Shown in pieces: positions 8,731-24,028 of a DNA stretch of 46,160 nucleotides. How positions within the stretch are numbered: position 1 is the stretch's first letter; the number at the start of each line of letters is the position of its first letter. Made by a program: the position numbers and the translations under genes. The notes below the pieces were generated by a model. It was not told the DNA's origin. It ran no database searches and saw nothing but the letters and a program-made list of their open reading frames with translations. The stretch lies in sequence record SRR2962707_2796. One strand, written 5' to 3'.

Positions 8731-8805
8731 AGTTCTACTCTTTGGAGTTGATGAGCGTTTGGCAGACGTTTTACTTGCCAATCGCCACCTTGCCCAAATA
8801 TTGGG

Positions 8806-10121: not shown

Positions 10122-10138
10122 TGCTTAATAGTTAAGCA
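10122..10138. promoter_or_regulatory. Perfect 7-3-7 inverted repeat TGCTTAA-TAG-TTAAGCA, candidate operator
   Basis: Read directly in the spacer between the divergent MFS and chaC genes. Confidence 0.4.
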
Positions 10139-10565: not shown

Positions 10566-11294
10566 ATGCCTTTTCCTGACCACGTCTTTCAACATACACC
10601 AGCGCTTCGCGGTTTGATTACCCCTCCAGATGCGTCGGAGATGCGCTTCCCTCTGGAAAGGTTTGACGACCTGGATGAGCAAGCCAAAGCAGAAGGGTGG
10701 CCGCCCGGCTGGCGCATGGATCATGACGAACGAGAAGCCAATCGCCAGAGTGTTTTGTCTGACCGGTGGTCTCAGGATCTTTGGGTCTTTGCCTATGGTT
10801 CTTTGATCTGGGATCCGGCGGTGTACGTCGAAGAATATCGCCACGGGGTTTTGCCTGATTGGCATCGTAGATTTTGCATGCTGTTGGAAGGTGGACGCGC
10901 GACCCACGCGCAACCGGGGCTTATGGCAGCGCTTGATCAGGGGGGACATTGCGATGGGGTTGTTTTCCGCATCAAGGCAGAGTTGGTAGATCAGGAAACA
11001 CAATTCATGTGGCGGCGCGAAATGTTCGCGGGGGCCTATTGCCCGGTTTTTCTTGAAGTTGCCACGCCCCAAGGACCTGTCGACGCTTTGGTTTTCGTTA
11101 TGGATCAAACCAATCCTCGCTATGTGCCGACATTGTCGGATGAGCAAGCGGCGCGTATGATCGCAGTGGCAGAAGGCGGGCTCGGCACCAATTTCGCTTA
11201 CCTGCACGCCTTGATCAGTCATCTGGATGAATTGGGCATTCAAGATGACAATATGAAAAGACTGTATTCTCTGGCCCGCGCGCATCGCGCCTAA
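10566..11294 (+). CDS. chaC: ChaC-family gamma-glutamylcyclotransferase
   Basis: WVFAYGSLIW signature, PGLMAALD.GG.C.G, WRREM and G.N..YL motifs; ATG 10566 preferred over the TTG start in the ORF track. Confidence 0.85.
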   Translation: MPFPDHVFQHTPALRGLITPPDASEMRFPLERFDDLDEQAKAEGWPPGWRMDHDEREANRQSVLSDRWSQDLWVFAYGSLIWDPAVYVEEYRHGVLPDWHRRFCMLLEGGRATHAQPGLMAALDQGGHCDGVVFRIKAELVDQETQFMWRREMFAGAYCPVFLEVATPQGPVDALVFVMDQTNPRYVPTLSDEQAARMIAVAEGGLGTNFAYLHALISHLDELGIQDDNMKRLYSLARAHRA

Positions 11295-11587
11295 CTTGGC
11301 TGCCCATTGGGGTCTAGAGCCGTATTCCCCCCTAAAGCGGACCCGATCATCGCAACGAGGCTGATCATTATGGTGAAGGTTGGAGCCGATGCTTCTTTGG
11401 GTTGTGAAGTCACTGGGTATTTTAACCTCAAAGGGCGGCGTGGTGGTCTTGAGAAAACGTGAAGACGGGCCAGACCCAACGGTCCCAGACGCATATTTCT
11501 GTATGAAATTCTGGCCGCGTTCAAAAACTCATAAGGGGGTGGGTTTGGCATTTTGCCGCTGACAATGGTGTGAAACGCCGGGCGCTC

Positions 11588-11627
11588 AGAGCTTGAGGTA
11601 TCACTCCAGACCATCCCAGTATTGGAC
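11588..11627 (+). promoter_or_regulatory. CatR-type LysR binding region and -35 (TTGGAC) of the muconate cycloisomerase promoter
   Basis: AGAGCTTGAGGTAT-CACTCC-AGACCATCCCAGTAT-TGGAC; resembles CatR-type AGACC-N5-(G/A)GTAT boxes and recurs at two other promoters in the locus. Confidence 0.65.
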
Positions 11628-11685
11628 TTATGTTGCTGCGCGCGCGACCTTTGCACGAACCGTATTTAGACAAGTGGCAGCCCTC

Positions 11686-12831
11686 GTGACCAAGATTGAA
11701 CGCATAGAAACGACGATCATTGATATTCCCACAATCCGCGGCCATGTTCTGTCGATGACGACGATGATGGTTCAGTCCATCGTCTTAGTTCAGATACGAT
11801 TTTCCGACGGATCCGTTGGATTGGGTGAGGGGACGTCGATTGGCGGGATGAGCTATGGCGCGGAAAGCCCTGAAAGCATCAAAGTCGCCATCGACGCCTA
11901 TATTGCCCCGGCTTTGCAGAGATTGAACGGCGACGACGTCAATGCGGCCACCAACTTGATGCAAAAGATCGTTCGGGGGAATCCAATCGCCCGCTGCGCG
12001 GTAGAAACGGCGCTTTGGGATGGATTGGGGCGACGGCTGAATGTCTCGGTTGCTCAGCTCTTTGGCGGTAAGCAGCGGGACGCAATGCCGGTTGCCTGGA
12101 CGCTGGCCAGCGGAAATTCAGATCAGGATATTGCCGAAGCCCAGCAGATGCTGGATCGCAAGCGGCACAATATTTTCAAACTCAAGATCGGCAAACGTTC
12201 TGTGCAAGAGGACATTGCCCATGTGGCGGCCATCAAATCGGCTGTCGGAGATCGCGCGAGTATCCGGGTTGATGTCAATCAAGCGTGGACGATTTCGCAG
12301 GCGCGGTGGGGGCTGGCCGGATTGCAAGAGATTGGTGTGGATCTTGTGGAACAACCGATCGAGGCCAAACATCTTGGGGCATTGAAGCATCTGACGGATA
12401 CTTATGAAATTGCGGTGATGGCCGATGAAGCCCTACAGGGGCCAGAGGACGCTTTTCAAGTGGCCGCCAACAGATCGGCAGATGTCTTTGCCATCAAAAT
12501 CGCGCAATCAGGCGGTTTGAAACGTGCCTCAGACGTGATTGCAATCGCGCAGGCCGCCGGTATCGGGCTTTATGGCGGCACCATGCTCGAAGCAGGTGTA
12601 GGAACGGCCGCTGCCGTGCAGCTGTTTTCGACTGTGGAAACTTTGGATTGGGGCACAGAGCTGTTTGGCCCCTTGTTGTTCAAAGACGAAATTTTGACCG
12701 TGCCAATCACGTATGCGGATTTCTCGCTGAGCGTCCCGGACGGGCCGGGTATCGGCGTTACGTTGGACAGTGACAAGGTTGCGCATTATCGGCGGGATCG
12801 GGCGACCTCAGTTCATGTGGTTGCCGGTTAA
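11686..12831 (+). CDS. catB: Muconate cycloisomerase (MLE I, enolase superfamily)
   Basis: GTG start about 11686; D.PTIR.H.LS, GEGT.IGG..YG.ESPE, AWTLASG, FKLKIG, RVDVNQ.W, EQP, MADE, YGGTMLE, WGTELFGPLL. Confidence 0.93.
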   Translation: MTKIERIETTIIDIPTIRGHVLSMTTMMVQSIVLVQIRFSDGSVGLGEGTSIGGMSYGAESPESIKVAIDAYIAPALQRLNGDDVNAATNLMQKIVRGNPIARCAVETALWDGLGRRLNVSVAQLFGGKQRDAMPVAWTLASGNSDQDIAEAQQMLDRKRHNIFKLKIGKRSVQEDIAHVAAIKSAVGDRASIRVDVNQAWTISQARWGLAGLQEIGVDLVEQPIEAKHLGALKHLTDTYEIAVMADEALQGPEDAFQVAANRSADVFAIKIAQSGGLKRASDVIAIAQAAGIGLYGGTMLEAGVGTAAAVQLFSTVETLDWGTELFGPLLFKDEILTVPITYADFSLSVPDGPGIGVTLDSDKVAHYRRDRATSVHVVAG

Positions 12832-13184
12832 ACGCTCTGTTGAATAGGGGATTTGCAGGTTGCGACGGAGCCTAAAGATTTTTTAGGTTTAGTGATTGTA
12901 ATCTTTGTTCTTCTTCTTGTGACATGTGGGCGGGTAGGACCGTTGTGATGGTCGGCGTCCCCTTGCGTGCGGTCTGGCGGTCCAAATTTGCCTTATCTCG
13001 AGGCCGCTTTGAAAATTTGGTCACTTAGGTTCGCAAGACTTAGGGGCTCGACGACAAAATCAACCAAGCGTTTGACAGCGCTTTTTGGGAAAATTACACC
13101 TGCGTGCAGTATTTGCCCCTAAACAAGCGGCGTTCAATCCGGAACTGAACGACGATCAAAGGGCCATCCATTAATCGGAATTGT

Positions 13185-14075
13185 TCACAAGGTTTTGCGT
13201 GCAACCGATTGAGCCAATTGAACAAAATTTCGGACATGGACCCCTTGTTCGTCCAGTCGGTAGTTCAATGACAGCTCTGTATGGGCCAAGGCGGGTTCAA
13301 TCTGGTGAAACCGGATGCCATTGCGGGTTCCTGAGGCGACAGAGGCGGGCACGATGCAAACACCTTCTCCGATCGCGACAAGGCTAAGTGCGGTTTGCAG
13401 GTCCATCGTAAAGACCCGGTTTTCGATTTCAACACCTTCTGCAGCACAGCTGTTCAGCACGAAATCGGCGAAGCTGGGCCGAGGGTATTCCGGGTAAAGG
13501 ATAAAGTTCTGGTCAGCGAGGTTGTGTAAATTGGCAATCCCGCGATGCCCGGTGTCTATCGTGTCAGGCACGGCCATTACCAACGGCTCTTCGCCCAGTT
13601 TGCGGTTCACAAACTCACTGTCGGTCAATGCGGGACGGGCAAAGGCCACGTCGATTTCGCGGCTAACCAAAGAGCGGTGCAATTGCGCGTTATTCATCGG
13701 GATCAGGCCTAGGTTCACCTCGGGGTAATTGGCACGAAATGACTTGATCACATTGGGGAGGATGCCAAAAGTTGATGAGCCGACAAAGCCGATGCGCAAC
13801 CGTCCTTCGGCCCCTTGGCCAATCCGGCGCACCTCTAGTTTCACATCTTCAATCTGACGTAAGATATTGACGCCTCTGTCATAAAGACGTTCACCTGCTT
13901 GGGTAAGGGTAATGGCGTTGCGCCCACGGTTGAACAGCTGCGCGCCCAGTTCTTCTTCGGTTTGTTTGATTTGACGGCTCAACGGCGGTTGCGCCATGCC
14001 CAACCGTTCGGCGGCTCGGCCAAAATGAAGTTCTTCGGCCACGGCAACGAAATAGGTCAGCTGTCTCAGGTTCAT
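13185..14075 (-). CDS. LysR-family regulator, CatR/BenM-like
   Basis: HTH MNLRQLTYFVAVAEELHFGRAAERLGMAQPPLSRQI; YP..PRPSFAD and LQTALSLVA.GEG..IVPASV are characteristic of CatR/CatM effector domains. Confidence 0.9.
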   Translation of the reverse strand: MNLRQLTYFVAVAEELHFGRAAERLGMAQPPLSRQIKQTEEELGAQLFNRGRNAITLTQAGERLYDRGVNILRQIEDVKLEVRRIGQGAEGRLRIGFVGSSTFGILPNVIKSFRANYPEVNLGLIPMNNAQLHRSLVSREIDVAFARPALTDSEFVNRKLGEEPLVMAVPDTIDTGHRGIANLHNLADQNFILYPEYPRPSFADFVLNSCAAEGVEIENRVFTMDLQTALSLVAIGEGVCIVPASVASGTRNGIRFHQIEPALAHTELSLNYRLDEQGVHVRNFVQLAQSVARKTL

Positions 14076-14146
14076 CTTTTAGGCCTCGCTTTCCTCGCTG
14101 CCTATCATAGTGGCGAAGTCGGGTTTGTCTGCAAGTGGAATGCGAA

Positions 14147-14169
14147 AATCCCCCGAAGATCGGGGGATT
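14147..14169 (-). terminator. Intrinsic terminator after the dioxygenase gene
   Basis: 10-bp perfect stem AATCCCCCGA-AGA-TCGGGGGATT, followed by T residues on the minus strand. Confidence 0.7.
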
Positions 14170-14193
14170 CCAAAAGTCTTTGATAACGCGGCG

Positions 14194-15063
14194 TTATTCG
14201 GCGGCGATCGCGGTGGCTTCGGCCTTAAGAACAAAGTCAAATTCTACATGCAAATCGTCATGCATGTCGGCGGGAGCCTTTTTGAATTCCGCGATCAAAC
14301 TGTCCTTAACCGCAAAGACTGAGTCATTTTTTAGCCAGTCGCTGCTGCTGTCATACACTTGGCTGATCAATGTTCCGAAACCCTCCTTGGACAAGATAAA
14401 GTGCATGTGGCCGGGACGGTTGGGGTGATGCCCCATATAGCGCAACAGCTCGCCTGCGGTTTCATTGTCCGGGATCGGATAAGGCACAGGACGGACAGCG
14501 CGGAAGGCATAATGCCCGTTTTCATCAGTGACGAAACGGCCACGCAGGTTGTAATCGGGCTGGTTTGGGTCGTGGTTTTCATAAAGCCCGTTTGGCGCGT
14601 CTTCCCAGACATCCATGATCACACCTGCCAGAGGCGCCCCGGATGTGTCACGCACATAGCCTTCGAAATAGACGGATTCTTCGGTATCGAAGTGTTTCTG
14701 AACGGTCGACGCGCCCTTGGGCAGAACCGGCGGGTTCTCACGGTAAAATGGCCCAAGCACCGTGGATTCACTTTCCCCGCTATCGACCGGGTTGGTCATC
14801 ATATCGACCAGAACTTCGACCCCAAGAATGTCGCCCAAAAGGATAAATTCCTGACGCTTGTCGTCACAAATCTGTCCGGCGCGGGCAAGGTAGTCACAAG
14901 CAAACATGAACTCGCTATGCTGCAGCTTCACATCTTTGCAGAACCCATGCAGATGCTTGATCAGAGATTCCAAGATTTCACGCTGCCGGGCGTCAATGTC
15001 ACCATATTTACCAAGCGATGCGATCACCACGTCGCTGACATTTTCCATTGTTACGTTACCCAT
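14194..15063 (-). CDS. Intradiol ring-cleavage dioxygenase (catechol/hydroxyquinol 1,2-dioxygenase family)
   Basis: GGAGGAGG RBS before ATG 15063; RQEFILL.D.LG, STVLGPFY; Fe ligands in GLY, PYPIP and RPGHMH. Confidence 0.92.
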   Translation of the reverse strand: MGNVTMENVSDVVIASLGKYGDIDARQREILESLIKHLHGFCKDVKLQHSEFMFACDYLARAGQICDDKRQEFILLGDILGVEVLVDMMTNPVDSGESESTVLGPFYRENPPVLPKGASTVQKHFDTEESVYFEGYVRDTSGAPLAGVIMDVWEDAPNGLYENHDPNQPDYNLRGRFVTDENGHYAFRAVRPVPYPIPDNETAGELLRYMGHHPNRPGHMHFILSKEGFGTLISQVYDSSSDWLKNDSVFAVKDSLIAEFKKAPADMHDDLHVEFDFVLKAEATAIAAE

Positions 15064-15155
15064 CAGATTTCCTCCTCCAAGGATGTTACTGCAAAACCGT
15101 CCAAGACACTTCGTTTGGACCTGTTGGTGGCGATACTTTCCTAGCAAGCGCGTTC

Positions 15156-15196
15156 CTCCAATGCCCTGAGCGGTATCGACCAATACCTTCGCCTAT
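15156..15196 (-). promoter_or_regulatory. LysR-type binding region of the dioxygenase promoter
   Basis: Minus strand reads ATAGGCGAAGGTAT-TGGTCG-ATACCGCTCAGGGCAT-TGGAG, the same layout as the catB promoter. Confidence 0.6.
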
Positions 15197-15222
15197 GGCC
15201 GCGCCATGAAGCGCCCGGATTG

Positions 15223-15263
15223 ATCCCATAGGGTATTGCCGGATACCCGCCGGGACATTGCAG
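15223..15263 (+). promoter_or_regulatory. LysR-type binding region of the SCP2-like/hydrolase/ABC/BKACE operon promoter
   Basis: ATCCCATAGGGTAT-TGCCGG-ATACCCGCCGGGACAT-TGCAG, the same layout as the other two. Confidence 0.6.
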
Positions 15264-15327
15264 AAGCTTCCCCTCAAAGTTCAGGTTGGGCCCAACAAGT
15301 GGCGCGACTTGCGTCAAAGGAGGGTCC

Positions 15328-15708
15328 ATGTATTCAACGCTACAGACAATGCAGACGCAGTTAAATGCGTCAGAACACCTGAAACATCTGGGCCGGTTGT
15401 TTTCTGAAACCGTTCTGATCGAGGTGGACGGCAACGAATTCTATCTGACTTTTGAAAAAGGCACCTTGGTTTCCTTGTCTCCAGGTCCTAGCCGCAAAAC
15501 CCCTTGGCGCTTTGCTTTTCGCACGGATACCGATGCGCTGCGTCAGTTTTGGCAACCCCGCCCGGCACCGGGATTTCACGACATCTTTGGTTTGGTGAAG
15601 ATCGGTCGGGGCCGGATCGAAGGGGACATGCTGATGTTGGTTAAAAACCTTCGATACTTCAAGGAATTCATGTCGTTAGGACGTCCGAAGCCGGAGGAAA
15701 CGCAATGA
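15328..15708 (+). CDS. Small hypothetical protein with probable SCP2-like (sterol-carrier) fold
   Basis: AAGGAGG RBS before ATG 15328; beta-rich middle and C-terminal G..RIEGD...L..NL pattern reminiscent of SCP2 domains; ATGA-coupled to the hydrolase. The fold call is an inference. Confidence 0.7.
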   Translation: MYSTLQTMQTQLNASEHLKHLGRLFSETVLIEVDGNEFYLTFEKGTLVSLSPGPSRKTPWRFAFRTDTDALRQFWQPRPAPGFHDIFGLVKIGRGRIEGDMLMLVKNLRYFKEFMSLGRPKPEETQ

Positions 15709-16550
15709 TTGAACCTATTGTCGGGCGCTATGTGACCGTAGAGGTCGAAGGGGTCTCTCAGCGGATCTACTTTGAAGAAGCCGGGAAGGGTCGCCCTGTG
15801 CTGTGTCTGCACACAGCTGGCGCAGACACCCGACAGTGGCGCCATCTTATGAATGATGCTGAGATCACTGAGAACAATCGCCTGATTGCTTTTGATCTGC
15901 CATGGCACAGCAAGTCTTTGCCGCCAGAAGGGTTTCAGACAGAAGAATACCTGCTGACGACGGAAACCTATATCGCGACGGTTTTGGCGATGATTTCAGC
16001 CTTGAATTTGGATCGTCCTATCTTGGCAGGGTGTTCAATGGGAGGACGGATCGCCCTTCAACTGGCAGCGCTTCATCCCGAGAAATTCAGTGGTTTCATC
16101 GCCATCGAAGCCAGCGACTTTCAACCGGCCTGGTATGATATTGATTGGTTCGCGCGTCCCGATTCCCATGGCGGCGAAATGGGGGCCGCGCTGGTTTCGG
16201 CCAATATTTCCCCCTTCGCCCCCGAGGCTGAGCGGTGGAACACGTTGTGGATGTTCATGCAATCCGGTCCGGGCGTATTTCGGGGAGACCTGAGTTTTTA
16301 CACCCGCGACGATAGCCTGATTGCCCGGCTTGGCCAAATCGACACCACCAAAACGCCCGTTCATCTGATCGTCGGGGCCTATGATCTGACCTGTACACCA
16401 GAAGATGCGAAACGCACTGCGGACGCCATTTCTGGGGCAACACTCTCTGTCATGGACGAGGTCGGTCACTTCCCAATGAGTGAACATCCGGCGGGCTTTC
16501 GTCCGTTCTTTATCGACGCTCTCGGCAGAATGCCCGGATCGGAGGCCTAG
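15705..16550 (+). CDS. Alpha/beta-fold hydrolase
   Basis: LHTAGAD oxyanion region, FDLPWH, nucleophile elbow GCSMGG, G.YD acid and GHFP catalytic His. Confidence 0.9.
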   Translation: MIEPIVGRYVTVEVEGVSQRIYFEEAGKGRPVLCLHTAGADTRQWRHLMNDAEITENNRLIAFDLPWHSKSLPPEGFQTEEYLLTTETYIATVLAMISALNLDRPILAGCSMGGRIALQLAALHPEKFSGFIAIEASDFQPAWYDIDWFARPDSHGGEMGAALVSANISPFAPEAERWNTLWMFMQSGPGVFRGDLSFYTRDDSLIARLGQIDTTKTPVHLIVGAYDLTCTPEDAKRTADAISGATLSVMDEVGHFPMSEHPAGFRPFFIDALGRMPGSEA

Positions 16551-16591
16551 CGCCCCGGTCCAATTCACATGGTGTAAGGAGGAAACACCCA

Positions 16592-17866
16592 ATGACTCGC
16601 AAGACCACGATTTCACGCCGCCAATTTGGCGCAGGCGTTGCCGCTCTGGGGGCCGCTTCAACACTGCCTTTGCCCGTGCAAGCCAAAACCCAGACCATCA
16701 AAATTGGCTTTGTCACACCGCAAACCGGTCCTTTGGCGGTATTTGCTGAATCTGATGCCTTTGTCCTTGAACAATTCCGCAGTCAACTTGCCGATGGTCT
16801 AGAGATCAACGGAGAGATGTACAACATTGAGATCATTGTAAAAGACAGTCAGTCCAACTCAAACCGTGCGGCGACTGTTGCTCAGGAATTGATGTTCGAC
16901 GACGAGGTGCATTTGATCACAGCGACTTCGACCCCGGACACCACCAATCCAGTTGCGGATCAGGCCGAGCTTAACGAAGTTCCCTGCCTGACCAACGACA
17001 CGCCGTGGCAGCCGCATTTCTTTGGACGTCAGGGAGACCCGGCAAAAGGCTTTGATTGGACCTTCCATTTCTTCTGGGGTCTTGAAGATGTCATTTCGAC
17101 CTTCACAGGTATTTGGAACCAGACCGAGACCAACAAAGTGGTTGGCGCACTTTGGCCAAATGACCCAGATGGCAATGCTTGGGGCAGCCCAGACGTTGGC
17201 TTTCCACCTGTTCTGGAGAAAATGGGCTATACCGTGGTTGATCCGGGCCGATACCAGGTGATGAGCGACGATTTCAGCGCTCAGATCAGCGCCTTTAAGG
17301 CCGCTGGTGTCGAAATATTGACCGGTGTTGTCCCGCCGCCCGATTTCACAACCTTCTGGCTACAGGCTGCCCAGCAGGGCTTTGCGCCCAAAGTGGTGAC
17401 ATTTGGTAAAGCACTCGAATTTCCGCAAGTGATCGGGTCGCTTGGAGATCGGGGTGAGGGGCTGAGCACAGAGGTTTGGTGGTCGCCCGGCCATCCGTAT
17501 AGCTCTGGGTTTACCGGTCAAAGTTCGGCTGAACTGGCCTCGGCCTATGAAGCGGCGACCGGAAACCCTTGGACCATGCCGCTGGCGTTTAAACATTCGT
17601 TGTTCGAAGTCGCGATTGACGCGCTCAAGCGCAGCGAAGACCCGACCGACCCTGCCTCGATCCGCGAAGCGTTGCGCGCCACGGATTACCAATCCATCGT
17701 CGGGCCGGTGAACTTTATGACGGGTCCGGTGCCCAATATTTCCAAAACACCTTTGGTGGGTGGTCAGTGGCACATCAAGGACGGAAAGCCCGTTTTGGAA
17801 ATCGTGGAAAACAGCGATCACGCGGCGATTTCCAAGACATCCACCGTTTCGCTGATTGGCGGGTAA
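16592..17866 (+). CDS. ABC transporter substrate-binding protein (Liv/branched-chain type), Tat-exported
   Basis: AGGAGG RBS; SRRQF twin-arginine signal; IKIGFVTPQTGPLA N-terminal motif. Confidence 0.9.
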   Translation: MTRKTTISRRQFGAGVAALGAASTLPLPVQAKTQTIKIGFVTPQTGPLAVFAESDAFVLEQFRSQLADGLEINGEMYNIEIIVKDSQSNSNRAATVAQELMFDDEVHLITATSTPDTTNPVADQAELNEVPCLTNDTPWQPHFFGRQGDPAKGFDWTFHFFWGLEDVISTFTGIWNQTETNKVVGALWPNDPDGNAWGSPDVGFPPVLEKMGYTVVDPGRYQVMSDDFSAQISAFKAAGVEILTGVVPPPDFTTFWLQAAQQGFAPKVVTFGKALEFPQVIGSLGDRGEGLSTEVWWSPGHPYSSGFTGQSSAELASAYEAATGNPWTMPLAFKHSLFEVAIDALKRSEDPTDPASIREALRATDYQSIVGPVNFMTGPVPNISKTPLVGGQWHIKDGKPVLEIVENSDHAAISKTSTVSLIGG

Positions 17867-17877
17867 CGCCGGCACAG

Positions 17878-17909
17878 GGCCTCGCCAAAATGGCGGGGCC
17901 ACATTTTTT
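17878..17909 (+). terminator. Intra-operon stem-loop after the binding-protein gene
   Basis: GGCCTCGCCA-AAA-TGGCGGGGCC followed by ACATTTTTT. Confidence 0.55.
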
Positions 17910-17922
17910 GAAAGGCGGGGCT

Positions 17923-18642
17923 GTGACTGCTTTGTTAGAAACCCAAGGGTTGGTGAAAAGCTTTGGTGCCGTGCGTGCCGTTGATGATGTGTCGCTTTCT
18001 CTGGCGGCCGGAGGCACGCTTGGGATCATTGGTCCGAACGGGGCAGGGAAGTCTTCACTGTTCAACCTTATCGCCGGTGTCATGCCCGCAGATTCAGGCC
18101 AGGTCTTGTGGCAAGGACAGGATATCACGCGCCTGTCCGCGGCAGAACGCTGTCGAATGGGCGTTGGCCGGACCTATCAAATTCCAAAGCCGTTTAGCGG
18201 TCTCACAGTTTACGAAAACTTACTTGTTGCGGCTGAATTTGGCGGTGAAGAAGGGGACGATTCCGAAGGGCTTTGCCTGTCGATTTTGGATCAAATGGAG
18301 CTGTCACATCTCGCAGATGCCCCAGCCGGGGGGCTGCGATTGTTAGAGCGCAAGAGATTGGAGATGGCCCGTGCGCTGGCGACGCGTCCCAAAGTGTTGT
18401 TGCTGGACGAAATCGCGGGTGGGCTGACCGATCTGGAATGCGACAGTCTTATTGCCGCCATCCGTGACATCAAAGCCCAAGGCGTTGCCATCATCTGGAT
18501 CGAACATGTGGTGCACGCGCTGTTTGCTGTGGTCGATCAGTTGGCCGTCATCAATTTCGGCGCAAAAATTGCTGAGGGTCCGCCAAAACAGACCTTTGAA
18601 AGCGCCGAGGTTCAATCCATCTATTTAGGGATCGAAGCATGA
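17923..18642 (+). CDS. ABC transporter ATP-binding protein (LivG-like)
   Basis: GTG start; GPNGAGKS, RTYQIP, LLLDE..GL, IEH. Confidence 0.92.
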   Translation: MTALLETQGLVKSFGAVRAVDDVSLSLAAGGTLGIIGPNGAGKSSLFNLIAGVMPADSGQVLWQGQDITRLSAAERCRMGVGRTYQIPKPFSGLTVYENLLVAAEFGGEEGDDSEGLCLSILDQMELSHLADAPAGGLRLLERKRLEMARALATRPKVLLLDEIAGGLTDLECDSLIAAIRDIKAQGVAIIWIEHVVHALFAVVDQLAVINFGAKIAEGPPKQTFESAEVQSIYLGIEA

Positions 18643-19355
18643 CCGAATTGCTACGGATCGAAGGGTTAGAAGCGTTTTACGGCGACTTCCAGGCTTTGTT
18701 TGGCATCTCTTTTGAGGTGGCAGAGGCAGAGACGGTTGCGCTTGTCGGTGCCAATGGGGCGGGGAAATCGACCTTTCTGAAATGTCTGACAGGTTTACTA
18801 CCGACACCGGGTCAAAACATAATTTATCGCGGGCAGAATATCGCTGGCTGGCCTTCGCATCAGATCGCACGGCAGGGCATCGCAATGTCACCAGAGGGCC
18901 GTCGGCTATTCCCGTCGCTTTCCGTTGAGGAAAACCTTTGCCTGGGGGCCAATGTCGGCCGAAAGGGGCAATGGGACCTGGCGGCTGTGCATGAGCTTTT
19001 TCCAATCCTCGCCGAAAAGCGCGATACGCCGGCCACGTTGTTGTCGGGGGGACAACAACAGATGGTTGCCATTGGCCGTGCGTTGATGAGCAATCCGGCG
19101 CTTTTGTTACTGGATGAGGTCAGCCTTGGTTTGGCGCCGGTCATTGTGCGCGACATCTATGCGGCGCTGCCGAAAATCCGCTCTGGTGGCACAGCCGTGC
19201 TGTTGGTCGAACAGGATATTGGCATGGCGATGCAAGTTTCAAACCGTCTGTACTGTTTTCAAGAAGGTCATGTCAGTCTGAGCGGCCCTGCTGCCGAGCT
19301 GACCCGCGACATGATTTCAACCGCATATTTTGGTCGCCAGAAAGAGGTGCAGTGA
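18639..19355 (+). CDS. ABC transporter ATP-binding protein (LivF-like)
   Basis: GANGAGKS, PEGRRLFPSL, LSGGQQQM, LLLDE.SLGLAP. Confidence 0.93.
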   Translation: MTELLRIEGLEAFYGDFQALFGISFEVAEAETVALVGANGAGKSTFLKCLTGLLPTPGQNIIYRGQNIAGWPSHQIARQGIAMSPEGRRLFPSLSVEENLCLGANVGRKGQWDLAAVHELFPILAEKRDTPATLLSGGQQQMVAIGRALMSNPALLLLDEVSLGLAPVIVRDIYAALPKIRSGGTAVLLVEQDIGMAMQVSNRLYCFQEGHVSLSGPAAELTRDMISTAYFGRQKEVQ

Positions 19356-20218
19356 TGGAATGGATTAATGCCATTGTGCAAGGCATCATGTTGGGCGGGC
19401 TTTATGCCCTTTTTGCTGCCGGGTTGTCTTTGATGTTCGGCGTGATGCGCTTTGTTAATCTGGCACATGGTGACTTTATCGTTGCAGGCGCGTTTGGCGC
19501 GATGGTGCTGGTACAGCTATTGGGCCTGCATCCGCTAATGACGCTGGCGGTTGTTTTGCCCGTCATGGCTGGGTTCGGCTATCTGGGGCAACGCGTGGTG
19601 CTGAACCGGGTGGTTGGGCGGGACATTTTACCCTCGATCATGGTGACATTTGGGTTTTCGGTAATCTTACAAAACCTGATGTTGGAACAGTTTAGCGCGG
19701 ATAGTCAAAGGCTTAGCGCCGGGGCGTTGGATACGGCGTCATTCGGACTTGGCGCTTTGTCGATCGGCGCGGTGCCGTTGTTAATGTTTGGCGCGGCGGT
19801 TGTGGTTCTGGGCGGGCTGAATTGGTTCTTTGGCCATACCAACACGGGCCGGTTGTTGCGGGCCGCGTCGGATGATGGGGACATTATCGGGTTGATGGGC
19901 GCGGACCGTCGCCATTTATTCGCGATTGCCACAGCCTTGGCCAGCGCCGTTGTCGCCATTGCCGGTGTGCTGATGGCGGTAAAGACCAACTTTGATCCGT
20001 CCGCTGGGCCGATCAGGCTGCTGTTTGCCTTCGAAGCGGTCATCATTGGCGGCTTGGGCAGTCTTTGGGGCACCTTGGCCGGTGGGATCATCTTGGGTGT
20101 GTCGCAAGGGATCGGTGCACAAATCGATCCGGGTTTGCAGATATTAGCGGGTCACATCGTGTTTTTGATCATTCTTGTGGTCCGGCCTCAGGGCTTGTTC
20201 CCAAAGCAAAGAGGATAG
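19355..20218 (+). CDS. ABC transporter permease (LivH-like)
   Basis: GLSLMFGVMRFVNLAHG, IIGGLGS, RPQGLF. Confidence 0.92.
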   Translation: MEWINAIVQGIMLGGLYALFAAGLSLMFGVMRFVNLAHGDFIVAGAFGAMVLVQLLGLHPLMTLAVVLPVMAGFGYLGQRVVLNRVVGRDILPSIMVTFGFSVILQNLMLEQFSADSQRLSAGALDTASFGLGALSIGAVPLLMFGAAVVVLGGLNWFFGHTNTGRLLRAASDDGDIIGLMGADRRHLFAIATALASAVVAIAGVLMAVKTNFDPSAGPIRLLFAFEAVIIGGLGSLWGTLAGGIILGVSQGIGAQIDPGLQILAGHIVFLIILVVRPQGLFPKQRG

Positions 20219-20219
20219 G

Positions 20220-21248
20220 ATGATGCGGATATCAAACGGAGACATTTTACGCATCGGGCTGTTGTCCATCGTCTTGTTTGGACTTGCTGCCGGACCCTTC
20301 TGGGCGGATCGAGGCACAATGCGTTTGCTGATCGAGGCTTTCTATTTTCTGGCCTTGGCGCAGCTTTGGAACCTGCTTGCTGGGTATTCCGGGCTGATCT
20401 CGGTCGGACAACAGGCCTTTGTCGGCCTCGGTGGCTATTTGTTGTTTACCTTGACCATGTTTGCAGGCTTGCCGGTTCTTGTGGCGCTGCCTGTGGCGGG
20501 GGTCCTGACAGGCCTAGTGGCCTGGCCCACAGCGATGGTGGCCTTTCGGTTGACGGGTCCGCATTTCGCGATTGGCACATGGGTGATCGCTGAGGTCTTT
20601 CGGCTAAGTTTTGCGCAGATCAGCAGCCTTGGCGGTGGGTCCGGTATTTCACTGCCCACAGACATCGTACGGAACATGGCCGATGGCCGCGCCGCACGGG
20701 AAAGCCTGACTTATTGGGTGGCGTTGGCCATGGTGCTAGTGGTGGTGCTGGGCATTTGGGTCCTGATGCGATCCCGCATTGGCTTGGGCCTTGGCGCCAT
20801 TCGCGACAACGAAGAAGCCGCAACAAGCGTTGGCGTCCGCACGTCGCGCCTGAAGTTCGGGATCTTTGTTGGTGTTGCGGCAATGACGGGCATGATCGGC
20901 GCGCTGATCTTCCTGCAAAAACTGCGCATAACACCCGAAGCCGCCTTCAGTGTGAATGAGTGGTCCGTCCTTGTGATCTTTATTGTCGTGATCGGCGGCA
21001 TAGGGTCGCTCGAAGGGCCGATCCTTGGTTGTATCCTATTCTTCGTTCTGCGCGAGTTTTTGGCCGATCTAGGCAGTTGGTATATGATCATCCTTGGGGC
21101 CATATCGGTTGGCATCATGCTACTGGAGCCTCGCGGTCTTTGGGGAATGCTGAATAGATGGCGACCGATGACGCTCTTTCCCACAGCGCAACGGGTTCCA
21201 GCAAGATCTGAACAGATTTCCATTTTGACCGCCCCGAGGACGCCATGA
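20220..21248 (+). CDS. ABC transporter permease (LivM-like)
   Basis: WNLLAGYSGLISVGQQAF, AIRDNEEAA, IGGIGS..GP. Confidence 0.92.
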   Translation: MMRISNGDILRIGLLSIVLFGLAAGPFWADRGTMRLLIEAFYFLALAQLWNLLAGYSGLISVGQQAFVGLGGYLLFTLTMFAGLPVLVALPVAGVLTGLVAWPTAMVAFRLTGPHFAIGTWVIAEVFRLSFAQISSLGGGSGISLPTDIVRNMADGRAARESLTYWVALAMVLVVVLGIWVLMRSRIGLGLGAIRDNEEAATSVGVRTSRLKFGIFVGVAAMTGMIGALIFLQKLRITPEAAFSVNEWSVLVIFIVVIGGIGSLEGPILGCILFFVLREFLADLGSWYMIILGAISVGIMLLEPRGLWGMLNRWRPMTLFPTAQRVPARSEQISILTAPRTP

Positions 21249-22072
21249 CAAAACCTTGTATCATTTGTGTCGCGATCACTGGGTCGTTGCCGACAAAGGC
21301 CAACAATCCCGCCGTTCCGGTAACGATTTCAGAGCAGATCGAAAGCACACAAGCTGCTTTTGAATGTGGCGCCAGCATTGTGCACGCCCACGTTCGAACC
21401 GACGGCGGGGCGCCAACCTCTGATCCATACCGGTTTGCGCGGCTCTTGGAAGGGCTGCGGAAATACTGTCCCGGGATGATCCTACAGTTTTCAACCGGCG
21501 GTCGGTCGGGGGCTGAGCGTGAACGGGGCGGAATGCTTTCGCTTCAGCCGGATATGGCGTCGCTCGCAGTGGGATCCAACAATTTCCCAAATCGCGTTTA
21601 CGACAATTCGCCGGATCTGGTCGATTGGTTGGCCAGCGAAATGAAAACCTACCATATCAAACCCGAGATTGAGGCGTTTGATCTGTCCCATATCCATCAG
21701 GCTGTGGCCATGAACAAAGATGGCCGCATTCCCGGCAAACTGTATGTTCAGTTCGTTATGGGCGTGAAAAACGCGATGCCGGTTGATCGGGACGTTTTTG
21801 ATTATTACAGGCGGACAATGGCGCGTCTTGCCCCAGATGCGGAATGGTGCGCGGCGGGGATAGGTCAGCACCAACTTACCGTCAACGAATGGTGCGTGGC
21901 GAACAACGGACACACGAGAACCGGACTTGAGGACAATGTTCGGCTAGACCGAAATACCCTTGCACCGTCTAACGCCGCACTGGTCCGCCGAGTTGTCGAT
22001 CTTTGCAACACTTACGAGCGGCCCGTGGCCACATGGCAGCAGGCGAGAGAGATCTTGGACCTGCCGCTTTAA
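21245..22072 (+). CDS. Beta-keto acid cleavage enzyme (BKACE/DUF849, 3-keto-5-aminohexanoate cleavage family)
   Basis: ATGA overlap; CVAITGS.P.K..NPAVP, H.HVR zinc motif, STGG, KPEIE.FD, RTGLEDN. Confidence 0.92.
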   Translation: MTKPCIICVAITGSLPTKANNPAVPVTISEQIESTQAAFECGASIVHAHVRTDGGAPTSDPYRFARLLEGLRKYCPGMILQFSTGGRSGAERERGGMLSLQPDMASLAVGSNNFPNRVYDNSPDLVDWLASEMKTYHIKPEIEAFDLSHIHQAVAMNKDGRIPGKLYVQFVMGVKNAMPVDRDVFDYYRRTMARLAPDAEWCAAGIGQHQLTVNEWCVANNGHTRTGLEDNVRLDRNTLAPSNAALVRRVVDLCNTYERPVATWQQAREILDLPL

Positions 22073-22239: not shown

Positions 22240-22833
22240 CTAGCAATAAGCGGCCAGGATCGTCGAGACCGCGCGCGAGACACGCCGATCAACGTCTTCA
22301 TAGGCGACATTCGTCACGCCAAACTGTACGCGGACCACACCGAAACCTTCGAAAAGAGAGATCATATCCTCTGCAACCTCAAGGGGATCGATTTTTTTGC
22401 TTAGGAGACCATTTTCCTCCGCTCGGGAAAACAATGCGGCCAGATCGTTTTGGCTCAGAACAAATGCAGCCTTATAAAAGGTTTGGCCTATTTCTGGGTT
22501 TTTCCGTGCGGATTCATGCATCAAGCAGGAAAACTTAAGTGTTTCTGGCTCGTTCAGGAATTTCAGAAGTTTTTGCCCATATTGAGTAAGAGCGTTGCGC
22601 AGGTCATCCTGTGTTTCAACCGATGGTGGCACGGTTTCACGAAATTTGTCGACTTCGCGTTCAGTGACACATCGCAAAACATCCGTCATATTGTCAAAAA
22701 TCCGATAGATGCTGGCCTTAGAGACCGAGGCTTCCTTCGCCAACAAGTCCGTTGAAACGTTTTCGAAGCCTCGTTCGAAGAATAGCCGCCGTGCGGCCGA
22801 GAGAATGCGCTGTTCTGAAGAAATCTTGTTCAT
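22240..22833 (-). CDS. TetR/AcrR-family regulator
   Basis: ILSAARRLFFERGFENVSTDLLAKEASVSKASIY HTH; divergent from the RND pump. Confidence 0.92.
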   Translation of the reverse strand: MNKISSEQRILSAARRLFFERGFENVSTDLLAKEASVSKASIYRIFDNMTDVLRCVTEREVDKFRETVPPSVETQDDLRNALTQYGQKLLKFLNEPETLKFSCLMHESARKNPEIGQTFYKAAFVLSQNDLAALFSRAEENGLLSKKIDPLEVAEDMISLFEGFGVVRVQFGVTNVAYEDVDRRVSRAVSTILAAYC

Positions 22834-22867
22834 TCTCTATACGTAGCGCGACCCAATGAAAAAGAAA

Positions 22868-22883
22868 AGTACTGATCAGTACT
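22868..22883. promoter_or_regulatory. TetR operator 1 (perfect palindrome AGTACTGATCAGTACT)
   Basis: 16-bp perfect palindrome in the tetR/RND divergent spacer. Confidence 0.75.
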
Positions 22884-22915
22884 CTTTGCGCTTGCCTGGG
22901 GGGTTAGAAAGAGTA

Positions 22916-22931
22916 AGTACTGAGCGGTACT
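22916..22931. promoter_or_regulatory. TetR operator 2 (AGTACTGAGCGGTACT)
   Basis: 14/16 match to operator 1, just upstream of the adaptor start. Confidence 0.7.
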
Positions 22932-22947
22932 CAATGGATTCGCTAAT

Positions 22948-24024
22948 ATGAAACTGCTACTAAATCTGCTCTTTTGCCTCGCTTTCCCGGTCGGACTTGC
23001 CGCCCAAAGCGTTGATACTCTTACCCCTTCGGGGGATGTTGCCCCGCTACGGTCGGTCAAATTGATCGAGGCCGGCGGCGAGGCTGCAAAAATTGAACGT
23101 GTTTTTTTTGGGCAAGTGGCTGCCTTGGAAACCGTCGACCTTTCGTTCGAAGTCGGAGGGCGGATGACAATGTTTGACGCGAAAGAAGGCGAGTTTCTTG
23201 ACGCGGGCGTTCAGATCGCCGGGCTGGACCTGGCGCCTTTCGAACGCGCGGTTGAACGGGCCACCCTTCAGTTGAACCAGACAGACCGGGATTTTGCGCG
23301 TTCGCAGCGCTTGGCCAGATCCAATTCTGTATCAGAAACCCAAGCTGAAAACGCCGAAACGGCGCGCGACTTAGCGGCGGTTTCTTTGAAAGAAGCGCGC
23401 GACGCCTATGAGGATGCAAAACTGGTCACCCCATTTCGGGCATTAGTGGCCTCGCGGCTCACTCCGAACTTTGCCAATGTATCACCGGGTCAACCGATCG
23501 TCCGGCTGCACGACATGTCTGAGGTCCGGGTGGAAATCGACGTGCCTGAGCAGCTCTTTCAGCAATTCTCTCGCACGTCCGATATTAGTTTCGTCGGAGA
23601 GTCGGTCCTATTTGACAACGAGGTGCCGCTTGAGTTGCGCGAGTTCAATGCCGAAACCCAAAGCATCGGACAGAGTTACCGGGTGACCTTTGCGTTGCCT
23701 GACGACCTCGCGAGCGCGGCCCTTATTCCCGGAGCGTCGATGACAGTAACTGCGCGGTTGAACAATTCCGATCAAAGCGCCGTCGCCCTGCCGCCATCCG
23801 CAGTTAACATCCAAGACAATACCGCTCGCGTTATGGTCTATACACCCGATGCATCGGGCACTGAAGGAAGGGTATCCTGGATGCCTGTAGAACTCTCCTC
23901 GCGCAGTGGTACAGATCTCACCGTTTCGGGTTTGACGCCCCAGACCCTGATCGTGGCGGCCGGAACACAAATGCTTCGAGAGGGCCAAATTGTGCGTCCT
24001 TTCACTGGCCTGAATGTAGAGTGA
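22948..24024 (+). CDS. RND efflux periplasmic adaptor (membrane fusion protein)
   Basis: Signal peptide; LSFEVGG, alpha-hairpin, L..PF, V.PGQPIV.L, L.PGAS.TV. Confidence 0.9.
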   Translation: MKLLLNLLFCLAFPVGLAAQSVDTLTPSGDVAPLRSVKLIEAGGEAAKIERVFFGQVAALETVDLSFEVGGRMTMFDAKEGEFLDAGVQIAGLDLAPFERAVERATLQLNQTDRDFARSQRLARSNSVSETQAENAETARDLAAVSLKEARDAYEDAKLVTPFRALVASRLTPNFANVSPGQPIVRLHDMSEVRVEIDVPEQLFQQFSRTSDISFVGESVLFDNEVPLELREFNAETQSIGQSYRVTFALPDDLASAALIPGASMTVTARLNNSDQSAVALPPSAVNIQDNTARVMVYTPDASGTEGRVSWMPVELSSRSGTDLTVSGLTPQTLIVAAGTQMLREGQIVRPFTGLNVE

Positions 24025-24028
24025 CCTT

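What the first reader, a model, noticed from the sequence alone, without database searches (positions are those of the whole stretch)
11588..22072. Candidate new catechol/beta-ketoadipate route lacking CatC, canonical CatD and PcaIJF
Seen: intradiol dioxygenase, muconate cycloisomerase and a CatR-like regulator. There is no muconolactone isomerase (the roughly 350 bp after catB has no CatC-like ORF), no typical enol-lactone hydrolase, no CoA transferase or thiolase, and no maleylacetate reductase. Instead, a co-regulated operon encodes an SCP2-like protein, an atypical alpha/beta hydrolase, an ABC importer and a BKACE. Known: the standard ortho pathway needs CatA, B, C, D plus PcaIJF, and some BKACEs convert 3-oxoadipate plus acetyl-CoA to succinyl-CoA plus acetoacetate. 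Inference: a short route of catechol -> muconate -> muconolactone -> (SCP2-like/hydrolase) 3-oxoadipate -> (BKACE) succinyl-CoA + acetoacetate. Alternatively, the hydrolase acts upstream and frees a catechol from an imported conjugate.
Basis: partly seen in the sequence, partly recalled or inferred. Interest (0 to 1): 0.82.

Follow-up and report, generated by a model that had tools for sequence, protein, structure and literature searches.

The report
Catechol pathway with substitute for CatC
This marine alphaproteobacterial gene cluster breaks down catechol but lacks the textbook enzyme muconolactone isomerase; a conserved, unstudied pair (a small sterol-carrier-fold protein and a lactonase-like hydrolase) probably does that step instead.

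Summary
The window has no CatC. CatC was also not found in 8 of 8 relatives' genomes that carry the cluster.

The 126-aa protein has an SCP2 fold and no family or PDB sequence match. A hydrolase gene follows it in 79 of 80 related loci. Natural fusions of the two exist, and a complex model passes its controls (0.71 against 0.44).

Among 37 catB-positive genomes in two samples, 20 had the pair only, 13 CatC only, 1 both and 3 neither. In some genomes the pair sits directly after catB, where catC normally lies. Most relatives link the cluster to benABCD. Sulfitobacter D7 carries it, grows on benzoate, and was reported to lack CatC.

Best reading (0.6): the pair turns muconolactone into 3-oxoadipate, replacing CatC and CatD.

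The rest of the claim is weaker. The BKACE belongs to a curated 3-oxoadipate:acetyl-CoA family, and relatives also have it beside pcaHG and beside a canonical catBCA cluster. Relatives' genomes encode canonical PcaD, PcaI/ScoA-type transferases and PcaF-type thiolases elsewhere. No biochemistry exists.

The parts
11597..11612 (+). Operator-like dyad GGTATCACTCCAGACC, one mismatch to GGTAT-N6-ATACC, about 75-90 bp upstream of the likely catB start
   Evidence: 5 window matches at up to 1 mismatch against 0.37 expected; 0 of 100 shuffles reached 5.
11686..12831 (+). catB, muconate/chloromuconate-family cycloisomerase. The ORF opens at 11593; the GTG at 11686 is the likely start.
   Evidence: TIGR02534 509.7 bits against a cut-off of 334.95, and MR_MLE_N/C domains. 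The start is inferred from the profile match beginning at ORF residue 35 and the sequence.
13185..14075 (-). LysR-family regulator, downstream of the dioxygenase on the same strand
   Evidence: HTH_1 plus LysR_substrate. BenM scores 164.7 bits and CatM 157 bits, both far below their cut-offs; AlsR scores higher at 226.9 bits. Found in 70 of 80 related loci.
14194..15063 (-). Intradiol ring-cleavage dioxygenase, the functional CatA candidate. The ORF runs to 15183; the likely start is at 15063.
   Evidence: Dioxygenase_N and Dioxygenase_C. All NCBIfam catechol and chlorocatechol models score below cut-off. The closest PDB chains are hydroxyquinol 1,2-dioxygenases (8r2x, 226.7 bits); catechol 1,2-dioxygenases score about 88-109 bits. 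It is 72% identical to the annotated 291-aa Sulfitobacter D7 dioxygenase from Met41 of the ORF.
15172..15187 (+). Exact GGTAT-N6-ATACC dyad in the divergent promoter region
15232..15247 (+). Second exact GGTAT-N6-ATACC dyad, 60 bp from the first
   Evidence: At least one exact site is present in 76 of the 80 related loci, mostly 70-180 bp upstream of the small gene.
15328..15708 (+). 126-aa SCP2-fold protein with an AAGGAGG ribosome-binding site upstream. Proposed isomerase or substrate-handling subunit.
   Evidence: No Pfam, NCBIfam or PDB sequence match. AF2 model pLDDT 77.7. The top Foldseek hit is SCP2 2cx7, TM 0.68, E 6e-5. Public sources name it only 'hypothetical' or 'SCP2 domain-containing'.
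15705..16550 (+). 281-aa alpha/beta hydrolase whose start overlaps the stop of the small gene (ATGA). Proposed lactone-hydrolase subunit.
   Evidence: Abhydrolase_1 and _6. The best NCBIfam matches are PcaDC and PcaD, but at 76.6 and 66.8 bits against cut-offs of 390 and 255.85. It is 23-25% identical to relatives' canonical PcaD. S111 (in GCSMGG), D227 and H255 are invariant in 21 sequences. Adjacent to the small gene in 79 of 80 loci.
16592..17866 (+). ABC substrate-binding protein, Peripla_BP_6 (LivK type); substrate unknown
   Evidence: This SBP type was found in only 4 of 80 related loci: L001, L002, L013 and L078.
17878..17900 (+). GC-rich stem-loop with a T run just after the SBP gene
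   Evidence: 10 pairs, 8 of them GC. This is a pattern match only.
17767..18642 (+). ABC ATPase 1. This is the ORF as listed; the real start probably lies after the stem-loop.
   Evidence: ABC_tran. The homologue annotated on plasmid pP88_c starts 59 bp after the SBP gene.
18639..19355 (+). ABC ATPase 2
   Evidence: ABC_tran.
19352..20218 (+). ABC permease 1
   Evidence: BPD_transp_2.
20175..21248 (+). ABC permease 2
   Evidence: BPD_transp_2.
21245..22072 (+). BKACE, 3-oxoadipate:acetyl-CoA acetyltransferase family; its start overlaps the end of the permease 2 ORF
   Evidence: PF05853 297.8 bits. NF053568 equivalog 478.2 bits against a cut-off of 350. Found in 65 of 80 related loci.

Best explanation
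The region is a LysR-controlled catechol ortho-cleavage cluster of a type common in Rhodobacterales. The proposed route has four steps.

1. The dioxygenase, a hydroxyquinol-dioxygenase-like enzyme acting as CatA, cleaves catechol to cis,cis-muconate.
2. CatB lactonises cis,cis-muconate to muconolactone.
3. The SCP2-fold protein and the alpha/beta hydrolase act as a two-subunit enzyme. In some organisms they are fused into one chain. Together they convert muconolactone to 3-oxoadipate, doing the work of CatC (isomerisation to the enol-lactone) and CatD (hydrolysis).
4. The BKACE converts 3-oxoadipate plus acetyl-CoA to succinyl-CoA plus acetoacetate.

Shown here: gene identities, synteny, absence of CatC, the SCP2 fold, the fusions, and the complementarity with CatC.

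Inferred: the substrate of the pair, the split of chemistry between the two subunits, the BKACE reaction (taken from the family name), and what the ABC system imports (catechol or a close precursor).
For: 1. Context. 80 loci encode the small protein. Counts within flanks of 10 kb or less, some cut by contig ends:
- hydrolase directly downstream: 79 of 80
- dioxygenase: 73
- LysR: 70
- BKACE: 65
- at least one of benA-D: 56
- CatC: 0

L010 reads catB-benABCD | lysR-dioxygenase | small protein-hydrolase-BKACE-CoA-transferase-BenE.

2. CatC (PF02426) was not found in 5 of 5 plus 3 of 3 cluster-carrying genomes, nor in the window.

3. Complementarity with CatC.
- In 351 genomes of the family of G005, 21 have catB above cut-off. 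Of these, 17 have the small protein only, 3 CatC only, 1 both and 0 neither. The one with both has each partner beside its own catB.
- In 301 genomes of the order of G356, 16 are catB-positive: 10 CatC only, 3 small protein only, 0 both and 3 neither.
- The 3 'neither' catB genes have no dioxygenase within about 8 kb.

4. Position. In G550 and G604 the order is dioxygenase-catB-small protein-hydrolase-lysR on one strand. The canonical G647 cluster reads catB-catC-catA-benABCD.

5. On a 22-row CatB tree, CatBs linked to the small protein form two separate starred clades. One is sister to the CatC-linked CatBs. The label needs at least 2 changes.

6. The pair behaves as a unit.
- Stop and start overlap (ATGA).
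- P0073 is a 424-aa natural fusion whose hydrolase part is 54% identical to the window's. Three further representatives carry both parts.
- The complex model scores 0.71 against a best control of 0.44. That mark was reached by 51 of 78 solved complexes and 2 of 108 mismatched pairs. The runs agree in at least 92% of contacts and the partner's pLDDT is at least 88.
- The interface joins the hydrolase cap (143-170) and residues 225-231 around Asp227 to residues 78-91 and 101-112 of the small protein.

7. Lactone chemistry. The hydrolase's best named family hits are PcaDC and PcaD.

8. Physiology in print. Sulfitobacter D7 grows on benzoate as sole carbon source, and its plasmid ben/cat cluster is induced. 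The authors found every catechol-branch gene except CatC (PMC9873259, passages read). That plasmid carries the pair after the dioxygenase and LysR genes.

9. In G005 and G002 the only Dioxygenase_C matches are a PcaHG pair and the cluster's dioxygenase. G001 has two PcaHG-type pairs plus the cluster's dioxygenase.
Against: - There is no biochemical or genetic test of the pair. To my knowledge no SCP2-fold protein is known to catalyse an isomerisation (recalled).
- 2 of the 20 Rhodobacterales genomes with a strong match to the small protein carry an orphan pair. No cat genes lie nearby and no catB was detected. The pair is therefore not tied to catechol alone.
- Distant homologues (27-37% identity) on Rhodococcus, Peribacillus and Agrobacterium plasmids are also followed by a hydrolase, but then by a succinate-semialdehyde dehydrogenase rather than cat genes.
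- His84 is not conserved across the wider family. Only G45, P79, G99 and R119 are invariant, and D85 and K112 nearly so. No clear catalytic residue stands out.
- Canonical PcaD exists in 4 of 5 relatives, so a second enol-lactonase is not strictly needed.
- The complementarity is partly a result of physical linkage and shared ancestry. Only two CatB lineages give independent support.
- The completeness of the genomes searched is not reported.
- One complex control, an unrelated protein in place of the hydrolase, scored 0.44.
- The dioxygenase sits nearer to hydroxyquinol dioxygenases.
- The closest relative's genome (G005) has no benA, so the source of catechol for the window-type cluster is unknown.
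Confidence: 0.6

Rival explanations
1. The pair is only a cat-branch enol-lactonase (a CatD analogue, with the SCP2-fold protein as a lid or stabilising subunit). An unidentified, unlinked protein isomerises muconolactone.
For: The hydrolase's best family hits are PcaD and PcaDC. SCP2 folds are known as ligand binders (recalled). No invariant catalytic dyad appears in the small protein.
Against: No other conserved gene of unknown function lies in the clusters. Canonical PcaD is already present in 4 of 5 genomes. The pair replaces catC positionally after catB. It is complementary to CatC: 33 of 37 catB-positive genomes have exactly one of the two.
Confidence: 0.15
2. The pair works on another lactone or ester, for example a substituted muconolactone or butenolide, or an imported conjugate that releases a catechol. 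It is only loosely tied to the catechol route.
For: Orphan pairs occur without cat genes in G159 and G162. Distant pairs are linked to succinate-semialdehyde dehydrogenase. The window-type cluster has its own ABC importer and no benABCD, and G005 has no benA.
Against: In 56 of 80 loci catechol is supplied by the adjacent benABCD, which needs no conjugate hydrolysis. The pair lies directly after catB in G550 and G604. Sulfitobacter D7 completes benzoate catabolism without CatC.
Confidence: 0.1
3. The cluster is a hydroxyquinol or maleylacetate route. The dioxygenase cleaves hydroxyquinol, and the pair and the BKACE process maleylacetate-type products without a maleylacetate reductase.
For: The closest solved structures are hydroxyquinol and chlorohydroxyquinol 1,2-dioxygenases at 164-227 bits, against about 88-109 bits for catechol 1,2-dioxygenases.
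Against: A muconate cycloisomerase is not needed for hydroxyquinol, yet it is co-located here and carries the shared operator. benABCD linkage points to catechol. In G002 and G005 no other non-PcaHG intradiol dioxygenase exists to serve benABCD or catB.
Confidence: 0.05

Closest known systems
CatC muconolactone delta-isomerase (PF02426) plus CatD/PcaD 3-oxoadipate enol-lactonase (TIGR02427) of the beta-ketoadipate pathway
   Same: The proposed net reaction is the same: muconolactone to 3-oxoadipate. The position after catB is the same. Genomes with catB usually have one or the other. The hydrolase is a distant alpha/beta-hydrolase relative of PcaD, at 23-25% identity.
   Different: The small protein has an SCP2 fold and no sequence likeness to CatC. 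The hydrolase scores far below the PcaD cut-off. The two appear to form a complex and occur fused, unlike CatC and CatD, which are separate enzymes (recalled).
SCP2 / UbiJ-type sterol-carrier fold proteins (2cx7, 1wfr, 6h6p)
   Same: The fold matches: TM 0.68 to 2cx7 and probability 1.00 for the top hits.
   Different: Identity is 12-18%. The protein gets no Pfam hit at all, PF02036 (SCP2) included, at E 0.001. The context is a soluble aromatic-acid pathway, partnered with a hydrolase, rather than lipid or quinone handling.
BKACE 3-oxoadipate:acetyl-CoA acetyltransferase (NCBIfam NF053568; model code 3OXCoAcCUPNH)
   Same: The window BKACE scores 478.2 bits against a cut-off of 350 over the full length.
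   Different: No difference was detected. Activity is taken from the family name and was not tested. The primary paper (Bastard et al. 2014, recalled) is not held in the library.
Hydroxyquinol 1,2-dioxygenases (8r2x, 3n9t PnpC, 1tmx)
   Same: These are the best-scoring solved relatives of the window dioxygenase.
   Different: The genomic partners here are benABCD and catB, which point to catechol as the substrate. No maleylacetate reductase lies nearby.
Alpha/beta-hydrolase lactonases and esterases (5egn esterase; 2xua 3-oxoadipate enol-lactonase)
   Same: These are the nearest solved sequences to the hydrolase: 5egn at E 1.3e-15 and 2xua at E 2.6e-8. The Ser-Asp-His set is conserved.
   Different: Identity is low. 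The cap region 143-170 is invariant within this family and is predicted to bind the SCP2-fold partner. That 5egn is a lactonase is recalled, not shown by the tool.

Membership tests
Muconolactone isomerase CatC (PF02426) | Sequence match to the MIase profile | tested here: not met
   The small protein has no Pfam hit. No CatC-like sequence was found in the window by tblastn with 4 CatC proteins. PF02426 was not found in 8 of 8 cluster-carrying genomes.
Muconolactone isomerase CatC (PF02426) | Catalyses muconolactone to 3-oxoadipate enol-lactone | not testable with these tools
   This needs an enzyme assay. Only genomic complementarity supports it.
SCP2 sterol-binding domain (PF02036) | Sequence match to the Pfam profile | tested here: not met
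   No Pfam family at E 0.001. A profile of 35 family members finds no PDB sequence.
SCP2 sterol-binding domain (PF02036) | SCP2 alpha/beta fold | tested here: met
   AF2 model pLDDT 77.7, though the other four models scored 56-61. The Foldseek top hits are SCP2 2cx7 and 1wfr and UbiJ-SCP2.
3-oxoadipate enol-lactonase PcaD/CatD (TIGR02427) | Score above the curated cut-off of 255.85 bits | tested here: not met
   66.8 bits. Identity to relatives' canonical PcaD is 23-25%.
Alpha/beta hydrolase fold (PF00561 / PF12697) | Profile match and nucleophile elbow G-x-S-x-G with Asp and His | tested here: met
   61.1 and 59.5 bits. GCSMGG is present, and S111, D227 and H255 are invariant in 21 sequences. 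Assigning these three as the catalytic triad is inferred.
BKACE, 3-oxoadipate:acetyl-CoA acetyltransferase (PF05853; NF053568) | Scores above the curated cut-offs | tested here: met
   PF05853 297.8 bits against 24.8. NF053568 478.2 bits against 350.
Muconate/chloromuconate cycloisomerase (TIGR02534) | Score above the cut-off of 334.95 bits | tested here: met
   509.7 bits, matching model positions 1-368.
Catechol 1,2-dioxygenase (TIGR02439 / TIGR02438) | Score above the curated cut-off | tested here: not met
   142.4 bits against 392, and 126.8 bits against 404.4. Chlorocatechol scores 160.4 against 359.25. The intradiol dioxygenase Pfam domains are met.
BenM/CatM-type LysR regulators (NF040709 / NF040710) | Score above the curated cut-off | tested here: not met
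   164.7 bits against 600, and 157 bits against 580. The generic LysR domains are met.

The most novel reading that the evidence does not exclude
The SCP2-fold protein is a catalytic subunit. Docked on the cap of a lactonase-like alpha/beta hydrolase, it forms a new two-subunit (sometimes fused) enzyme that converts but-2-en-4-olides to 4-oxo acids in one complex. In roseobacters the reaction would be muconolactone to 3-oxoadipate, replacing both CatC and CatD. In the Rhodococcus, Peribacillus and Agrobacterium modules that are followed by succinate-semialdehyde dehydrogenase, it would be a simple butenolide to succinate semialdehyde.
Probability: 0.3. Interest if true: 0.8.

Novelty: new variant of a known kind. 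Interest (0 to 1): 0.68.

Why it matters
The beta-ketoadipate pathway is a textbook route. A replacement of CatC by an unrelated protein would fill a gap already noted in print for a benzoate-growing, alga-associated roseobacter.

It would correct pathway predictions that call the catechol branch incomplete across many marine Rhodobacterales. More than 950 protein clusters (90% identity) of the small protein score E 1e-10 or better, and every source name among the 120 listed is 'hypothetical' or 'SCP2 domain-containing'. It would also give an SCP2 fold its first role in a soluble catabolic enzyme.

Finally, it shows that in these lineages 3-oxoadipate may be handled by a BKACE in both the catechol and the protocatechuate branches.

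Tried and rejected
- Whole-genome search of the window's own genome: none is held, so relatives were used instead.
- Sequence searches of the small protein against Pfam, NCBIfam and PDB, and a 35-member profile against PDB, found nothing.
- Earlier findings of this scan, looked up by sequence: nothing to show.
- Literature searches found no paper that assigns a function to the pair: BKACE with 3-oxoadipate, beta-keto acid cleavage enzyme with catechol, muconolactone isomerase with Roseobacter and benzoate, muconolactone isomerase/missing/SCP2 (uninformative), muconolactone with sterol carrier protein, and catC/catB/Rhodobacteraceae/benzoate. Subscription journals are mostly not covered.
- The BKACE family paper is not held.
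- Sequencing runs: no RNA holder is listed.
- Promoter and terminator pattern scan: the counts are near those of shuffles and uninformative, apart from the stem-loop after the SBP gene.
- ORF 10539-11285 (-) or 10476-11294 (+) upstream of catB has no family, only a weak Atlas result, and no match in the related loci.
- The 'conjugate hydrolase' and 'hydroxyquinol route' readings were considered and ranked low; see the rival explanations.

Full report
**1. What is in the window**

- catB (ORF 11593-12831, +) scores 509.7 bits on TIGR02534, whose cut-off is 334.95. Its likely start is the GTG at 11686.
- On the minus strand lie an intradiol dioxygenase (ORF 14194-15183) and, downstream of it, a LysR regulator (13185-14075). 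The dioxygenase probably starts at 15063, judged from its 72% identity to the annotated 291-aa Sulfitobacter D7 protein.
- Divergent from these is an operon. It holds a 126-aa protein (15328-15708, with an AAGGAGG site upstream) and an alpha/beta hydrolase (15705-16550) whose ATG overlaps the small gene's stop. A LivK-type ABC system (16592-21248) and a BKACE (21245-22072) follow.
- The 353 bp after catB contain no frame longer than 57 aa.
- Four CatC proteins from relatives find nothing in the window.
- Pfam scans of the other large ORFs found no CoA-transferase, thiolase or Fe-ADH.
- No genome is held for the window.

**2. Relatives and context**

The small protein has relatives in 148 stretches of reference genomes, and 80 loci were kept, mostly Rhodobacterales. 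An uncultured Lentibacter (L001) and an Antarctobacter MAG (L002) share the window's gene order at 81-93% protein identity.

Counts over the 80 loci, with flanks of 10 kb or less and some cut by contig ends:

| Feature | Loci of 80 |
|---|---|
| Hydrolase directly downstream of the small gene | 79 |
| Dioxygenase | 73 |
| LysR | 70 |
| BKACE | 65 |
| At least one of benA-D | 56 |
| CoA-transferase B subunit | 26 |
| BenE | 14 |
| catB | 12 |
| Window-type SBP | 4 |
| CatC | 0 |

In Roseobacter sp. MED193 (L010) the order is catB-benABCD | lysR-dioxygenase | small protein-hydrolase-BKACE-CoA-transferase-BenE. This is a benzoate and catechol cluster, so catechol is the ring-cleavage substrate there.

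The window type differs. It has no ben genes, and its own ABC importer sits inside the operon. The closest relative's genome (G005) has no benA detectable with the MED193 protein. What feeds catechol into the window's cluster is unknown.

**3. CatC is missing and the pair takes its place**

PF02426 was not found in 5 of 5 and 3 of 3 genomes that carry the cluster. Two samples of genomes then gave this split among catB-positive genomes (catB above cut-off):

| Sample | Genomes | catB-positive | Small protein only | CatC only | Both | Neither |
|---|---|---|---|---|---|---|
| Family of G005 | 351 | 21 | 17 | 3 | 1 | 0 |
| Order of G356 | 301 | 16 | 3 | 10 | 0 | 3 |
| Total | 652 | 37 | 20 | 13 | 1 | 3 |

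- The one genome with both (G188) has catB-catC on one contig, and a second catB next to the small gene on another.
- One of the three 'neither' genomes has a weak 27% match to the small protein on another contig. Their catB homologues (40-44% identical to the window's) have no dioxygenase, LysR or pair within about 8 kb. They may not serve catechol.
- In G550 and G604 the order is dioxygenase-catB-small protein-hydrolase-lysR on one strand. The canonical G647 cluster reads catB-catC-catA-benABCD.
- On a CatB tree of the 22 sequences I had at hand, CatBs linked to the small protein fall into two starred clades. One is sister to the CatC-linked CatBs. The label needs at least two changes.

**4. 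The small protein and the hydrolase as one unit**

- The small protein has no sequence match in Pfam, NCBIfam or PDB.
- An AlphaFold model reached pLDDT 77.7; the other four models scored only 56-61. It matches SCP2 structures: 2cx7 at TM 0.68 and E 6e-5, then 1wfr and UbiJ-SCP2.
- Across all proteins searched, 317 representative clusters match at E 0.001 and 85 at 1e-10. Four of these carry both parts in one chain. P0073 is complete at 424 aa, and its hydrolase part is 54% identical to the window's. P0138, P0021 and P0040 carry only part of the hydrolase domain and may be truncated.
- A complex model of the window's two proteins scored 0.71 against a best control of 0.44. That mark was reached by 51 of 78 solved complexes and 2 of 108 mismatched pairs. 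The runs agree in at least 92% of contacts, and the partner's pLDDT is at least 88.
- The modelled interface joins the hydrolase cap (143-170) and residues 225-231 around Asp227 to residues 78-91 and 101-112 of the small protein. This supports binding but does not show it.
- The hydrolase is very conserved, with 86% mean column identity over 21 sequences and S111, D227 and H255 invariant.
- Its best named family hits are PcaDC and PcaD, far below their cut-offs. Its nearest solved sequences are an esterase (5egn), meta-cleavage hydrolases and a 3-oxoadipate enol-lactonase (2xua).

**5. The lower pathway is not missing from relatives**

- Canonical PcaD above cut-off is present in 4 of 5 relatives. 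In G005 it lies about 70 kb from the cluster on the same contig.
- PcaI/ScoA-family transferases are present in 5 of 5.
- PcaF-type thiolases above cut-off are present in 3 of 5.
- The BKACE matches the curated equivalog for 3-oxoadipate:acetyl-CoA acetyltransferase.
- In 4 of 5 relatives a second copy lies next to pcaHG. In G647 a 73%-identical copy lies beside the canonical catBCA-benABCD cluster.
- The BKACE step is therefore a lineage habit, not a special feature of this route.

**6. The dioxygenase**

It fails every NCBIfam catechol and chlorocatechol model. It is closest to solved hydroxyquinol 1,2-dioxygenases. Even so, in G002 and G005 it is the only Dioxygenase_C match besides a PcaHG pair. 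G001 has two PcaHG-type pairs plus this dioxygenase. It also sits with benABCD and catB. I read it as a functional CatA.

**7. Regulation**

The dyad GGTAT-N6-ATACC occurs twice exactly in the divergent promoter region, at 15172-15187 and 15232-15247. It occurs once with one mismatch at 11597-11612, upstream of catB. The window has 5 matches at up to 1 mismatch against 0.37 expected, and 0 of 100 shuffles reached 5. 76 of the 80 related loci have at least one exact site, mostly 70-180 bp upstream of the small gene. This fits control by the adjacent LysR protein, which is inferred.

**8. Literature**

Barak-Gavish et al. 2023 (PMC9873259; passages read) report three things about Sulfitobacter D7:

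- It grows on benzoate as sole carbon source.
- Its plasmid ben/cat cluster is induced by algal medium.
- All catechol-branch genes were found except CatC.

That plasmid carries catB-benABCD-ABC | LysR-dioxygenase | 'hypothetical protein'-'alpha/beta hydrolase'. The hypothetical protein is 65% identical to the window's small protein.

None of the six literature searches returned a paper that assigns a function to the pair. Every source name given among the 120 proteins listed is 'hypothetical' or 'SCP2 domain-containing'.

**9. Points against**

- Two of the 20 Rhodobacterales genomes with a strong match carry an orphan pair among unrelated genes, with no catB detected.
- Distant pairs on Rhodococcus, Peribacillus and Agrobacterium plasmids (3 of 3 examined) are followed by succinate-semialdehyde dehydrogenase, not cat genes.
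- His84 is not conserved family-wide.
- Complementarity is inflated by physical linkage and shared descent.
- The completeness of the genomes searched is not given.
- Nothing has been assayed.

**10. Verdict**

The likely novelty is a replacement of CatC, and probably CatD, by an SCP2-fold protein and hydrolase pair that is unrelated to CatC. I put that at 0.6.

A bolder reading is that the pair is a general butenolide to 4-oxo-acid enzyme, which would also explain the dehydrogenase-linked modules. That is inference only, at about 0.3.

Noticed in passing
Relatives' genomes: G005:C12:35144-37185, G001:C1:3173930-3176000, G002:C4:2019663-2022460, G003:C1:3792468-3795787: A second copy of the 3-oxoadipate-type BKACE (485-496 bits on NF053568) lies directly beside pcaG/pcaH, and beside PcaD in G002. 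The protocatechuate branch in these roseobacters seems to end in a BKACE too.
   Followed up: partly
L083 (Rhodococcus rhodochrous plasmid), L084 (Peribacillus frigoritolerans plasmid), L085 (Agrobacterium larrymoorei plasmid): Distant homologues of the small protein (27-37% identity) are each followed by an alpha/beta hydrolase and then an NAD-dependent succinate-semialdehyde dehydrogenase. This is a conserved three-gene module of unknown substrate.
   Followed up: partly
L082, Phaeobacter inhibens P88 plasmid pP88_c, locus 3211-16745: Two copies of the dioxygenase/small protein/hydrolase module lie side by side. One carries a FAD-dependent oxidoreductase. The other is the window type with the ABC system and BKACE, followed by transposases.
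   Followed up: no
L101 (G159:C40) and L102 (G162:C11): Orphan small protein-hydrolase pairs sit among unrelated genes: sirohaem synthase and an RTX protein in one, an oligopeptide ABC system and a GFO/IDH/MocA oxidoreductase in the other. No catB was detected in either genome.
   Followed up: partly
window 17878-17900: A strong GC-rich stem-loop with a T run lies right after the SBP gene, inside the operon. It may be an attenuator or an mRNA-stabilising element that raises SBP levels relative to the other ABC parts.
   Followed up: no
window 10476-11294 (+) / 10539-11285 (-): Overlapping ORFs of 272 and 248 aa on opposite strands upstream of catB have no Pfam or NCBIfam match, only a weak Atlas result, and no counterpart in the 80 related loci. 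Which strand codes, if either, is unresolved.
   Followed up: partly
window 28092-31568 (+): A 1158-aa fusion of an MFS transporter, an acyltransferase and an AMP-binding enzyme. By domain order it resembles lysophospholipid transporter plus Aas-type acyltransferase/acyl-ACP synthetase fusions (recalled).
   Followed up: no
window 22240-27100: A TetR regulator lies divergent from an RND efflux pair (a HlyD-type adaptor and a 1023-aa AcrB-family pump), immediately downstream of the BKACE.
   Followed up: no
L100 (G647:C13:15000-29000): A canonical catB-catC-catA-benABCD cluster has a 73%-identical BKACE and a CoA-transferase subunit next to it, but no enol-lactonase within the 14 kb fetched.
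   Followed up: no
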